Shown: in pieces, positions 3,601 to 9,600 of the stretch
Position numbering within the stretch: the stretch's first letter is position 1
Layout of the letters: every line of letters starts with the position of its first letter
NCBI GenBank assembly: GCA_951804945.1
Contig: OX638150.1
Location: 73,036,001 to 73,100,000, forward strand
Direction of reading: 5' to 3'
Origin: Podarcis cretensis
Taxonomy: Eukaryota
Length of the DNA: 64,000 nt
Translations under genes and position numbers: made by a program
Notes under the pieces: generated by a model
What the model was told of the DNA's origin: nothing
The model's database searches: none
Seen by the model: only the letters and a program-made list of their open reading frames with translations

Positions 3601-6600
3601 GACATTGGTTGGGTGCTGCAAAAATACTTGTGAGCATTAGCAGTAATGCCAGCAGCCCAATTGAAATGGGAGCAATGTATAAACTCTGCTAAACATTTAG
3701 GAAGCTTCTGAACATGCATGTTGGCAACTGGGGTCCTCCATGTATCAATTGTCTGATATCATAATGATGTTAGATGACCCAAAGTAATTACTCCCCTTTG
3801 TGGGTTTGGTTTGAGCCACTTGCATTCAAGCTAGTGATACAAAGGAATATGGGCTGATCAGTGCTTATAGCAAATCCCAGGGATTGGCTGCCCTATGGTA
3901 CCCACAGCCAGGAATTCTGTAGTGTAGCTGATCTCAGTGGGCTTGTTAGCAAGCATTCCTTTACCTAGGGGCTGGGGCTGACAACAAGCCCTGCTTGCCA
4001 AGCTCTACATTGTTCATATATACATTTCTATCTGCCCCACACCTTACGTTGCATATGACATTGGGTGTGTGACAAGTACCGTACTTTTCGCCCTATAGGA
4101 CGCAACGGCCCATAGGAAGCACCTAGTTTTTTGGGGCGGAAATCAAGGGAAAATTTTTTATTTCCCCCCCAGGTTTGTGTAGCCATCCCCAAGCTAGAAG
4201 AGGGAGACGGAGCGCTCCATCTCCCTCTTCTGCCTTCAGGGACAGCCTCTCTAGCCTCCGTGGGGCAGCGGCTTGCCCCGCTGTCCCCCTAGCTTGTGGG
4301 GCTGGCGGGGGGGGGAGAAGCAAGCTTGCTTCTCCCCCCCTGCCAGCCTCCAGATCAGGTCGGGGAATAGCGGGGTGGCGGCTTGCCCCGCTGTCCCCCG
4401 AACTTGTGGGGCTGGCGGGGGGGGGGAGAAGCAAGCTTGCTTCTCCCACCCCCCCGCCAGCCTCCAGATCAGGTCGGGAAATAGCGGGGTGGCGGCGCTC
4501 CGCCTCCCCGCTATCCCCCAAACTTGTGGGGCTGGCGGGGGGGGGAAGAAGCAAGCTTGCTTCTCCGCCCCCCCGCCAGCCTCCAGATCAGGTCGGGGAA
4601 TAGCGGGGTGGCGGCTTGCCCCGCTGTCCCCCGAACTTGTGGGGCTGGCGGGGGGGGGGGGAGAAGCAAGCTTGCTTCTCCCACCCCCCCCCCCGCCAGC
4701 CTCCAGATCAGGTCGGGAAATAGCGGGGTGGCGGCGCTCCGCCTCCCCGCTATCCCGCAAGCTTGTGGGGCTGGCGGGGGGGAGGAGCAAGCTTGCTCCC
4801 CCCCCGCCAGCCTCCAGACTAGGTCGAGGAATAGCGGGGTGGCGGCGCTGCACCTCCCCGCTGTCCCCCGAGCTTTTGGGCTGCAGGTTGCTGCCCGCAA
4901 GCCTTGCGAGCCGGCGGGACCTCCCGCCGGGCTTGCAAGACTTGCGGATAGCTTCCTGAAGCCTGGAGAGCGAGAGGGGTCGGTGTGCACCGACCCCCCT
5001 CGCTCTCCAGGCCTCAGCGAAAGCCTGCATTCGCCCCATAGGACGCACACACATTTCCCCTTCATTTTTGGAGGGGAAAAAGTGCGTCCTATAGGGCGAA
5101 AAATACGGTAGGTGTGATTTGGGGGAAACGATGAGCTAAATCGTTACCCTTGTTGGGCCTAATTTGGCCTGTGGACTGGAGGTTCTCTACCTCTGCTATA
5201 GAAAAAGCACAGCTTACCTGGAACCAGTAATCCTCCTGGTTGGAAAGTACCAGAAAACCCCCATCATCGATGAGAACACAAAGGAGGTCCTGAAAGATTG
5301 AACAATACTTTGTGTTTTGCAGTGGCTTCTAAATTCTGGTTTAGACATTAGCCTACATGCCTGATTGTCTCCATAATGAGCAAAGGCAACTTTAACTGAG
5401 CATTCCTTGTCATTCTATAAACATTTATGGTGCTCGCATGTGTTTTAAGGATCAGAGTAGTCTAAGAGCAAGGGAATAAAGGTAGTGGAAACAAAGCTTG
5501 GTATGTTTATGTGTATACACACACACATGCACAGGGCAGCACCTCTTGTTTTGCCGCCCGAGGCAAGATCTTGTCAAACTGATGCCATTGATGGCATGAT
5601 TTATCCACTGGAGGTGGTGCCCATGAGGGTGTTGACTCTTTGGCTTATGCCGCCCAAGGCAACTGCTTCACCCCACATCAGGATTTCTGACAGTTTTCTG
5701 GTTTAGGAAGCAGCTAAGGATACACTACAATAAGCAGTTAGAGTCGCTATGTAACAATCAGCAAAAAGGCCCAGTTATTTTCCATTTGTTTCCTCCATGT
5801 TTACCTTGTAATTAGCCTCACAGTCCATCTCGCAGCCTGTGGAGGGGTCACACTGGAAATGAAAGAAGAAAGGCAATGACACCAAGAGAGTTCTAAACAC
5901 ATCTCAAAACTGACTTACTTAAATCACACATCCACACCCTTCCTAATCACAAGAGGAACAGGTTCTACAGGTAGAAGGGAATTGTAAGGAAATGAGAACA
6001 GAGACAGCTTTGGCAACATTTATATATGCTCTGGTAATGTTTAGATTGCTACAGTGTGCTGTATGTGGGGAATTATGATGACTTTCCAGTCGGAGTAAAA
6101 TGGAGTGTAATAATCAATTCTCACAGATCTGCTTCTGTCCACCCAAGGTTAAAGACAGGGCAGGGGAGGAGGGCGGGGAAGAAGGGTGCCAGACCAGTTT
6201 TGCAGGATTGAAGCCACTCCTGCTGAGAACAGTAATAACAGTGCATGGATTGTTCACGTCGAGATCCATACTGGGAGAAAATGTAACTAGTAAAAAAGTT
6301 GTCTTAAAAGTGGTTTGAAAATCATTCTAAGGAATAGAAGTGAAACGTGCCAGCAAGAAGCAGCAGCAGCAGAAAAAACACTAACATGGACTGGCAACGG
6401 GATTCACTGCTTGGACTATACCTTGGTGGTCTTCACTTGTTTTCAGGCACAATTCAGTGTGCTGTCTTGTCTTTGTCCTACAAAGCTCTAGATGACTTGA
6501 GGTCAGTAGATCTGACAGACTGCCGTTTCTCATATGAACCTTGCTGTTCCTTAACTTCCTCTGAGACCCCAGTTTTGGGAGCCTCACCTTTTAGAAACTA

Positions 6601-9600
6601 GGCTGGTAGTTACCAGAAATGTCTTTGTTTTATTGGTGGGCCCTTCTTTATGGAATATCTCCCCCAGATATATTAAAGTGTCTCTAATTTTAGCATTTTA
6701 ATGTTTTAAGCATTCAGGATCCTCAAAATGAACTGGAGGGGCAAAGAAGTGTTATGAAGTAGGATGATAAACCACCTCTTTCAGGAACAGTAAGATAGAT
6801 ACATAGATGATATAGATATAGATAGATATAGATATACTGTATTTTTTGCCCTATAGGACGCACTTTCCCCCCTCCAAAAACGAAGGGGAAATGTGTGTGC
6901 GTCGTATGGGGCGATTGCAGGCTTTCGCTGAAGCCTGGAGAGCGAGAGGGGTCGGTGCGCACCCACCCCTCTCGCTCTGCATGCTTCGCGGACCTCTCTG
7001 CAAGCAGCGGGAGCGCTCCCGTTGCTTGCGGAGAATTGCCTGCATGCAGAAGCCTGCACGCACTGAGCTCACCGCGTCCAGGCTTCGCGGACCTCTCCGC
7101 AAGCAGCGGGAGCGCTCCTGCTGCTTGCGGAGAGTTGCCTGCATGCCGAAGCCTGCCCGCGCTGAGCTCAGCGCGTCCAGGCTTCGCGGACCTCTCCGCA
7201 AGCAGCGGGAGCCAGCCCTGGGCTCCCACGGCTTGCAGAGAGCTGCCTGTTTGGGGGCTGGGGCGGGGGAAGCTCGAGCCTCCCCTGCCCCAGCCCCGCA
7301 CCTGGGAAAAAAATAATAATTTCCCCCCCTTTATTTCCCCCCCAAAAAACAAGGTGTGCCTTATGGGACTGTGCGTCCTATAGGGCGAAAAATACGGTAG
7401 ATATATAACCTCTGGGCAGTGCTTTTTTTGGGGGGGGGATGCAGGGGTATTCATACCACTAAACATTTTGTGAATCTTTGTACTTTTGTCCATTTACTGT
7501 ATTTATTTTTCCTGATTTGAACTATAAAATGGTGATTTTCTTGAGTCAAAATGAAAAAAAAGCACTGCCTCTGGGGGTTCATTCATTGTTGCCAGAGGGA
7601 ACCTGGCATGTCAGTGGCAAGGGTGACCGCTCTGCTGCAGTGTTAGGACAGCACTGGGGATGCAAAGTGGACTTGCAAGTGCTCCTCAGCTCCAACCATG
7701 TTATCTACAAAATGCAAAATCCCAGATCCTTTTCCAGGAGCATATTTTTCACCACCTACTCTTCGTGTCCCCAGCTGATCCCTTTCTGTTCGGTTACTTG
7801 CAAGGACTTTAAATTTTTCCGCCCATGCTTCCAGGTCAAGTTTCACTCCAACCACTGGAAAGGGAAAAACAAAAAAGATATTCAGGTTAGAAAAATGTCA
7901 TCATCTTTTTTTGTCTAAAAACCTGGGCTGCATAGACACCACACATTTAAAGCCCATGGCTCCCCCTAAAGAATAATAGGAACTGTAGTTTACCTCCCAC
8001 AGAGCTACAGTTCCCAGGATTATTTGGCGGAAGTTATGTGCTTTAAAGGGGACGCAGGTGGCGCTGTGGGTTAAAGCCTCAGTGCCTAGGGCTTGCCGAT
8101 CGAAAGGTCGGCAGTTCGAATCCCTGCAGCGGGGTGCGCTCCCGCTGCTCGGTCCCAGCGCCTGCCAACCTAGCAGTTCGAAAGCACCTCCGGGTGCAAG
8201 TAGATAAATAGGGACCGCTTACCAGCGGGAAGGTAAACGGCGTTTCCGTGTGCGGCTCTGGCTCTGGCTCTGGCCAGAGCAGCGATGTCACGCTGGCCAC
8301 GTGACCCGGAAGTGTCTCCGGACAGCGCTGGCCCCTGGCCTCTTAAGTGAGATGGGCGCACAACCCCAGAGTCTGTCAAGACTGGCCCGTACGGGCAGGG
8401 GTACCTTTACCTTTACCTTTTTATGTGCTTTAAATGAATGGTGTGAATCTAACTCAGGCGTCCTGTTGTTTCTTATTATGTACGGCATTTTGATGCATTC
8501 TTCCTAAAACCAGCTTCGTTCAGAACTGAGAAACAAAAACTACTTAGCTGCTAACGTGACAGCATGAAGGATTACACAAAGGCCACATGAGCCTTCAGCC
8601 CAGTGGAGGGGTTTGTCAACACAATAGCCCCCCAAAAAATCAAATGTTTTTGCAGCCTGACTGAAGACAATGAGCTGGTATTTATGTAGACTGCCAGAGA
8701 GGCTGTGGAAGGCTTCACAGCTGCAAATGATGTAGACCAGAAGGCCTGAAGACAGGAGAGACATTCCAGAGACAAAGATACAGGCAAACGCCCCATCATT
8801 CTTACCTGCTGGTTTCAGGTGCCTCTCTCCAAAGTTGAGCTCAACTGCTGTGCTGACAAGGATCCCAACTGTGTTGTTTTCCAGTTCCAGCCCTCGGTAG
8901 TTGACTATAGGGGGAAGAAGAAGAAAAAGGACCTGCCAGTCTGTGGATGGCACAGGCAGCATAACTGTTGCAAAGCACTCTCTGGCTTGGGTGGCAATGC
9001 TTTATGGTTCCATGCAGGGCTGACTTCCTGCCAGTGCCCTCTCCCTTCTTCCTTGTGGTGACAAAATGAAAGGCTGTGCCTTACTTTTTTTATTTTATTA
9101 ACATTCTAATTAGTAATCTATGACGAGAACACTTTTCTGCTTAAGCAATTACCCACTGCATATAATATGAAAGGGTAGCCACAGCATATGCAGCAAGCAG
9201 TGAACCGCTTTATTACATTACCCCTTGTCCTTAGTGGAGTTTGTGAATGCAAAGTGGCAGGTCCCTTATGGTGCAAGAAAACTAAGATCAGAAGCTATAA
9301 ATTATGGACGTGGAGGCATGATGGGGTTCTTTGCCTGCCATTTATTACAGAGCTTCAGGAACCGTGGCTTGATCAAGACTATGTAAATACTACATATTAC
9401 TATTACTGTCCTTGTAGTAGGCCTTTAAGCAGAATTTATTGCCTCACACCCTGTAGCCAGATGTCTGGTGCCAATTCCTGTGGTTCCATGCTTAGAAAGG
9501 CTATCAAAGCTGAGGGCAGGGCAAACCAGTCCCACCCACTTGGAGCACTGTAGGGCATACTTACAATCCCTGTAAGGGGTCTTAAAGATGTGGCCTTTGT

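What the first reader, a model, noticed from the sequence alone, without database searches (positions are those of the whole stretch)
4079..7397. Inverted pair of same-family MITEs brackets two frame-symmetric CACNA2D2 exons
Seen: the right arm of MITE 1 (~4960-5108) is about 90% identical by eye to the reverse complement of the left arm of MITE 2 (6837-6978), and the outer arms are also homologous. Between them lie exactly two exons (5218-5289 and 5805-5852), both phase 0/0 and totalling 120 nt; MITE 1 ends only ~110 nt from a donor. Established: inverted repeats in flanking introns promote back-splicing and exon skipping (as with inverted Alus). Inference: this could give a lineage-specific circRNA or an in-frame 40-aa deletion isoform lacking a Cys-rich segment. 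The outermost TIRs also define a potential 3.3-kb composite transposon carrying channel exons.
Basis: partly seen in the sequence, partly recalled or inferred. Interest (0 to 1): 0.7.

Follow-up and report, generated by a model that had tools for sequence, protein, structure and literature searches.

The report
Inverted transposon pair around channel exons
Two small copies of a common jumping gene face each other across two exons of a wall lizard's calcium-channel subunit gene and are predicted to pair in the RNA, but this is likely a chance layout of a kind already known from flies and apes, and no skipped or circular RNA was seen.

Summary
Two MITEs (4079-5108, 6837-7397; TA flanks) lie head to head around two phase-0 CACNA2D2 exons (72 + 48 nt); the inner arms match at 131 of 142 bases, and folding favours the inter-element stem by about 130 kcal/mol. 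Both MITEs derive from a Passer-type pogo transposon (425-aa DD35D transposase, same TIRs, elsewhere in this genome). The family has at least 4,611 copies, so 14 to 95 tight inverted pairs are expected by chance. A relative about 97% identical has a clean empty site for MITE 1 with the exons in place: the two elements did not arrive as one composite unit, and the exons are single-copy. No RNA test was possible (contigs only, no splice joint listed). None of 159 scored homologue proteins lacks both exons, and the 40 residues include a motif conserved from fish to mammals. A 120-nt circle is below the roughly 300 nt that circularised efficiently in flies. Geometry resembles TBXT, so minor skipping, circles or editing remain possible. 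The scan noted the same layout before at UHRF2 in this genome. Verdict: real, ordinary in kind, testable.

The parts
4079..5108 (-). MITE 1, 1030 bp non-autonomous Passer-type (pogo) element; its 5' end is at 5108; TA at 4077-4078 and 5109-5110; internal array of about five GC-rich hairpin units of 110-120 nt
   Evidence: empty site in run X21
6837..7397 (+). MITE 2, 561 bp element of the same family in the opposite orientation; 5' end at 6837; 2.3 internal units of 99 nt
4941..5110 (.). Inner arm of MITE 1 (transposon 5' end), predicted to pair with 6835-7004 in the pre-mRNA
6835..7004 (.). Inner arm of MITE 2 (transposon 5' end)
4077..4174 (.). Outer arm of MITE 1 (transposon 3' end), predicted to pair with 7300-7399
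7300..7399 (.). Outer arm of MITE 2 (transposon 3' end)
5805..5852 (-). CACNA2D2 exon, 48 nt, phase 0/0, residues 839-854 of P0003, three cysteines
5218..5289 (-). CACNA2D2 exon, 72 nt, phase 0/0, residues 855-878 of P0003, conserved cysteine and hydrophobic DDGGF motif
7760..7854 (-). Upstream CACNA2D2 exon, 95 nt; its donor at 7760 would be used in a double skip
2937..3089 (-). Downstream CACNA2D2 exon, 153 nt; its acceptor at 3089 would be used in a double skip

Best explanation
Two MITEs of an abundant Passer-type pogo family lie head to head in neighbouring CACNA2D2 introns, likely by independent chance insertions, and are predicted to form an RNA stem around two exons that likely remain almost always included, any skipped, circular or edited RNA being a minor by-product without function. 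Shown: the elements, their family, their abundance, the empty site for MITE 1 in a relative, the exons and the predicted fold. Inferred: that a Passer transposase inserted each one in trans at a TA, that the stem forms in part of the nascent transcripts after each element's own hairpins are displaced, and that the outcome is near neutral.
For: Family size: 1,855 exact 27-nt TIRs and 4,611 matches to an internal 5'-end marker at up to 1 mismatch, control 0; 21 of 36 sampled copies carry a nearly identical marker at that stringency, so about 8,000 copies. Poisson expectation for 4,611-12,000 copies: 14-95 inverted neighbours within 2 kb. 327 of 630 pairs of sampled copies match over 120 nt or more at 88% or more, so the arm match is family identity. 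6 of 40 sampled copies have a second related copy within 5 kb, 1 inverted. 464 kb around the window hold 6 inverted matches of 100 nt or more, 80% or more, 150-2000 nt apart, this one included. Empty site with one TA in run X21. 0 of 159 scored homologues lack both exons; P. muralis RefSeq isoforms X1-X4 differ only at the N-terminus and a 6-residue exon. Only exons of 300 nt or more circularised efficiently between fly transposon repeats (PMC4617980, passages); stem stability does not predict circles (PMC4201285, passages) and differs little between skippable and constitutive exons (PMC13019027, passages); circles linked to young TEs are argued to be by-products (PMC8516420, abstract and passages).
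Against: Within the gene this is the tightest exon-bracketing inverted pair: 1,724 nt, next 6,539 nt, among 39 of 44 matches that bracket an exon. The fold is favoured by 130 kcal/mol. The TBXT pair that does cause skipping is 1,448 bp apart and only 228 of 297 identical (PMC10901737, passages). Inverted repeats are enriched around skipped exons, more so close to splice sites (PMC13019944, Results part 1 of 2), and one arm is 107 nt from a donor. No RNA data tested neutrality; whether the annotated Podarcis assemblies carry both MITEs was not checked, so their isoform lists are weak evidence.
Confidence: 0.72

Rival explanations
1. TBXT-like loop-out: the stem hides both exons often enough to give an appreciable in-frame isoform lacking 40 residues, which lowers or changes alpha2delta-2 activity in this lineage only.
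For: Spacing and identity comparable to or better than TBXT; both stems together would shorten the 7760-3089 path from 4,670 to about 1,350 unpaired nt; frame kept, so no nonsense-mediated decay; MITE 1 is recent.
Against: No skip seen in 159 scored homologues; the lost segment aligns to solved alpha2delta-1 chains and keeps the C-x8-C spacing and DDGGF motif (138 of 184 proteins match the full four-cysteine motif), so the product would likely misfold (inference; a disulfide at rabbit alpha2delta-1 Cys844-Cys853 is recalled, not confirmed); in isolation 120-124 of 168 (MITE 2) and 143-144 of 168 (MITE 1) arm bases are already paired locally; frame preservation is a one-in-three event.
Confidence: 0.14
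2. Back-splicing: the inner stem brings donor 5218 to acceptor 5852 and yields a stable lineage-specific circle of 120 nt (or 635 nt if the inner intron stays).
For: Inverted transposon repeats of lower identity (75% over 106 nt) are necessary for the fly Laccase2 circle; 30-40 nt repeats can suffice; the unspliced span is 635 nt, above the size limit if back-splicing precedes removal of the 515-nt intron.
Against: Exons of 48 and 72 nt are far below 300 nt; endogenous circles range from about 100 nt and average about 700 nt (PMC7868716, passage); the upstream arm is 982 nt from the acceptor; G-U pairs (5 here) can hinder circles.
Confidence: 0.11
3. Composite transposon: the outermost TIRs form one 3.3-kb unit that carried or can carry the two exons.
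For: Outer TIRs are correctly oriented with TA outside; a copy with an open 425-aa transposase frame and matching TIRs exists in the genome.
Against: Exons single-copy; empty site for MITE 1 alone with exons in place; both outer ends are 3' ends; the open-frame copy has no near-identical sibling (best others 93% and 92% over part, 88-89% full length; 34 matches), which argues against current activity.
Confidence: 0.03

Closest known systems
TBXT AluY-AluSx1 pair (Xia et al. 2024, PMC10901737; passages seen)
   Same: A lineage-specific insertion pairs with an inverted copy in the neighbouring intron about 1.5 kb away; in-frame skip would follow.
   Different: There one exon, retrotransposons, skipping and phenotype shown; here two exons, DNA-transposon MITEs rich in their own hairpins, nothing shown in RNA.
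Drosophila laccase2 and PlexA circles flanked by inverted DNAREP1_DM transposons (Kramer et al. 2015, PMC4617980; passages seen)
   Same: Inverted, poorly conserved transposon copies in flanking introns.
   Different: Those circles are 490 and 1,437 nt and were detected; this one would be 120 nt, with one arm nearly 1 kb from its splice site.
Inverted Alu pairs and loop-out skipping genome-wide (PMC13019027, passages; PMC13019944, abstract and Results part 1 of 2)
   Same: Same layout; 13.2% of detected duplexes span two or more exons.
   Different: Primate SINEs; the association is statistical and many flanked exons are constitutive.
Passer (PS) family of pogo transposons (Gao et al. 2020, PMC7386202; Wang et al. 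2023, PMC9976928; passages seen)
   Same: [quoted passage not shown]
   Different: The two elements here are non-coding derivatives with internal hairpin arrays; no lacertid element appeared in the passages seen (supplementary species tables not seen).

Membership tests
MITE (non-autonomous DNA transposon) | Terminal inverted repeats and target-site duplication | tested here: met
   TIRs and TA flanks; 33 of 36 complete sampled copies TA/TA; single TA at the empty site
MITE (non-autonomous DNA transposon) | Short, high copy number, ends shared with an autonomous-type element | tested here: met
   331-952 bp in 36 copies, 4,611 marker hits; ends 78-90% identical to L075 over 90-190 nt
Passer (pogo superfamily) | DD35D catalytic triad in the parent transposase | tested here: met
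   35 residues between second and third D, counted on the translation
Passer (pogo superfamily) | BrkDBD + HTH_Tnp_Tc5 DNA-binding domains, DDE_1, 400-500 aa, 1.6-4 kb, TIR under 30 bp, TA | tested here: met
   against the definitions
Passer (pogo superfamily) | Placement in the Passer clade of a transposase tree (Fot also has DD35D but other DNA-binding domains) | not tested
   no reference transposases fetched
Inverted-repeat-driven exon skipping (TBXT type) | Inverted complementary repeats in the flanking introns, predicted to pair | tested here: met
Inverted-repeat-driven exon skipping (TBXT type) | Skipped transcript exists and depends on both repeats | tested here: inconclusive
   contigs of two guessed-RNA runs of relatives listed no splice joint at all; 0 of 159 protein models lack both exons
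Repeat-facilitated circRNA (laccase2 type) | Circularised exon length that supports efficient back-splicing (about 300 nt or more in the fly test) | tested here: not met
   120 nt spliced; 635 nt with the inner intron
Repeat-facilitated circRNA (laccase2 type) | Back-splice junction, RNase R resistance | not testable with these tools
   no raw-read RNA run offered
Composite transposon | Cargo moved as a unit: one shared target duplication, cargo found elsewhere or absent with both elements | tested here: not met

The most novel reading that the evidence does not exclude
A recent Passer MITE insertion completed an RNA stem with an older copy and created, in one wall-lizard lineage only, regular in-frame skipping of two conserved alpha2delta-2 exons (or a small brain circle) that tunes calcium-channel trafficking: a TBXT-like event driven by DNA-transposon MITEs in a reptile, with a natural control among congeners that lack MITE 1.
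Probability: 0.07. Interest if true: 0.65.

Novelty: new member of a known kind. Interest (0 to 1): 0.22.

Why it matters
As it stands it is one of many inverted repeat pairs in a repeat-rich genome. Its use is as a test case: MITE 1 is present in one lizard lineage and cleanly absent in a relative, so brain RNA of the two would show directly whether hairpin-rich DNA-transposon MITEs drive skipping, back-splicing or editing in a reptile as Alus do in primates. If an abundant isoform were found in a gene whose loss causes ataxia and epilepsy in mice and people (recalled), it would be a rare traced case of a transposon pair changing a neuronal protein.

Tried and rejected
RNA search: no RNA holder listed on record; 18 of 23 runs were guessed RNA, all contigs. 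Two of them laid on 2000-6700 gave only unspliced-looking pieces; 15 of 82 joints were shown, all inside MITE 1, not even normal splice joints, so they say nothing on skipping, circles or editing. The laid stretch did not include MITE 2 or the upstream exon, so MITE 2's presence in relatives and the order of insertion stay open. Summed contig depth was not used as a copy number. AlphaFold2 on 27 homologues gave pLDDT 30 and was not used. The recalled disulfide was not found in papers. Rfam: 0 matches in 3000-8000. The top 30 DDE_1 loci carried no matching TIR; the parent was found among 20 lower-ranked loci. Rejected: assembly artefact (run X17 contigs run from both flanks into MITE 1); intra-element hairpins winning at equilibrium; the 42-residue-shorter lacertid isoforms as the skip (they differ at the N-terminus). 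Literature listings for CACNA2D2 circles (20 of 51), MITE-driven circles (6 of 6), Podarcis transposons (15 of 490) and lizard circles (12 of 279) showed no title on this locus; PMC10058329 (passages) concerns another element.
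Full report
Observation. The window holds four matches to a 26-nt TIR, none expected by chance. They bound two elements, 4079-5108 and 6837-7397, each with TA on both sides. The inner arms are 170 nt and 89% complementary with 1,724 nt between them, the outer arms 73 nt and 85%; over the 142 terminal bases 131 match. The host gene is CACNA2D2 on the minus strand: the downstream exon is 100% identical to Podarcis proteins and tblastn places exons at 7760-7854, 5805-5852, 5218-5289 and 2937-3089. 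The two middle exons are 48 and 72 nt, phase 0/0.

What the elements are. The genome has 1,855 exact 27-nt TIRs and 4,611 matches to an internal marker of one end. Of 40 copies sampled by an exact TIR on contig C1, 36 were complete, 331-952 bp, 33 with TA on both sides; 21 of 36 carry a marker shifted by one base at up to one mismatch, which puts the family near 8,000 copies (the sample leans to young copies). A Pfam DDE_1 search gave 119 matches; the top 30 had no such TIR, but 17 of 20 lower-ranked loci had TIR-like ends and four (L075, L080, L083, L085) had ends within 2 mismatches. L075 is 2,096 bp, TA-flanked, with an open 425-aa frame holding BrkDBD, HTH_Tnp_Tc5 and DDE_1 and 35 residues between the last two catalytic aspartates. 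That fits the published definition of Passer, pogo superfamily (PMC9976928 and PMC7386202, passages); no tree was built. MITE 1 matches L075 over 190 nt (89%) and 90 nt (88%) at its two ends, MITE 2 over 149 nt (90%) and 130 nt (78%). The inner arms are the transposon's 5' ends, the outer arms its 3' ends.

History. In DNA run X21 (organism D, about 97% identical in introns) one 495-nt contig joins 3926-4075 to 5108-5445, which is the pre-insertion site with a single TA; the exon beside it is in place. In run X17 (organism C, 2 and 3 differences in contigs of 2.1 and 1.6 kb) contigs run from both flanks into MITE 1. MITE 1 is therefore real and lineage-specific. MITE 2 was outside the laid stretch. 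MITE 1's 5' end is a median 94.7% and MITE 2's 91.2% identical to other copies (29 of 37 scored each), which hints that MITE 2 is older (inference). The stretch 5150-5900 has one full match in the genome, its own, and three short intronic ones; the 72-nt exon as protein has one significant match of 2 candidates. A composite transposon has not carried these exons. The open-frame transposase has no near-identical sibling among 34 matches.

Does the stem form? The minimum-energy fold of 4000-7480 as pre-mRNA at 30 C has 135 base pairs between the inner arms and 87 between the outer arms. Barring pairs over 1,100 nt costs 130 kcal/mol; two-strand folding gives 119-139 kcal/mol. But the elements are strongly self-folded: alone, 120-124 of 168 arm bases of MITE 2 and 143-144 of 168 of MITE 1 are paired, and with local folding the longest free runs are 10 and 4-8 nt. 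MITE 2 is transcribed first. The stem needs strand displacement and probably forms in only part of the transcripts (inference).

Is the layout unusual? For 4,611-12,000 copies placed at random, 14-95 inverted neighbours within 2 kb are expected. Six of 40 sampled copies had a related copy within 5 kb, five direct and one inverted. 327 of 630 pairs of copies match over 120 nt at 88% or better, so most pairs could form such a stem. Across all repeat families, 464 kb around the window hold 6 inverted matches of 100 nt or more, 80% or more, 150-2,000 nt apart, this one included; I did not separate single elements with long arms from pairs. Against ordinariness: in the 237-kb part of the gene that was mapped (32 exon hits), 39 of 44 inverted matches bracket an exon and this is the tightest, the next being 6,539 nt apart. 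The scan reported the same layout at UHRF2 in this genome (e1-9865662; an unchecked note, which also pointed me to the fly paper).

Would a product matter? Of 184 homologous proteins fetched, 159 had both flanking exons; none lacks both middle exons, 18 lack or replace the 48-nt one (mostly bird and turtle automatic models) and 1 the 72-nt one; 25 were not scored. P. muralis RefSeq isoforms X1-X4 differ only at the N-terminus and in a 6-residue exon (15 of 19 cluster members listed), though I did not check that this assembly has both MITEs. The 40 residues align to solved alpha2delta-1 chains with the C-x8-C spacing and the DDGGF motif kept, and 138 of 184 proteins match the four-cysteine motif. 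I recall a disulfide at the matching rabbit residues 844 and 853 and a Cache-domain strand there; neither was confirmed. A deletion product would likely misfold. For a circle, only exons of 300 nt or more circularised efficiently between fly transposon repeats (PMC4617980, passages), hairpin stability did not predict yield (PMC4201285, passages), and circles tied to young TEs are argued to be by-products (PMC8516420, abstract and passages). On the other side, TBXT skipping comes from a pair 1,448 bp apart and 228 of 297 identical (PMC10901737, passages), and inverted repeats are enriched near skipped exons (PMC13019027, passages; PMC13019944, abstract and Results part 1 of 2), so some skipping here would not surprise.

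RNA evidence. None usable: see Tried and rejected.

Verdict. A real, correctly described inverted MITE pair of a Passer-type family, one member recent. It works like the inverted Alu and DNAREP1_DM pairs in layout; membership of the skipping or circle-forming class is not shown, and the circle fails the size criterion. Most likely a chance, near-neutral arrangement (0.72); appreciable skipping 0.14, circle 0.11, composite transposon 0.03. Supplementary species tables of the two Passer papers, not seen, may already list this lacertid element. Interest 0.22.

Noticed in passing
L075 1823-3918 (G000:C2 near 62.88 Mb): Passer-type pogo element, 2,096 bp, TA-flanked, open 425-aa DD35D transposase frame with the MITE family's TIRs; relatives with a variant TIR are 88-89% identical in protein, several with open frames.
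   Followed up: partly
window 4276-4880 and 6983-7212; L004-L043: 17 of 36 sampled copies carry internal tandem arrays, mostly of 89-119 nt GC-rich units; in the two window copies the units contain palindromes. Copy length varies from 331 to 1,030 bp.
   Followed up: partly
window 62726-63056 and 63669-64000: A far stronger inverted pair of SINE-like repeats (family name recalled as Sauria SINE) in the same gene: 97.6% over 332 nt, 612 nt apart, no mapped exon between; a likely editing substrate.
   Followed up: no
window 8049-8415: A copy of the same SINE-like repeat about 200 nt upstream of exon 7760-7854, inverted and 94% identical to 63669-64000.
   Followed up: no
L009, L015, L019, L023, L031, L041: Of 6 sampled copies with a related neighbour within 5 kb, 5 are direct and 1 inverted; too few to show depletion of inverted pairs.
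   Followed up: no
window 5805-5852: 18 of 159 homologue models lack or replace this 48-nt exon alone (three thrush models skip it cleanly); probably annotation errors, not checked.
   Followed up: no
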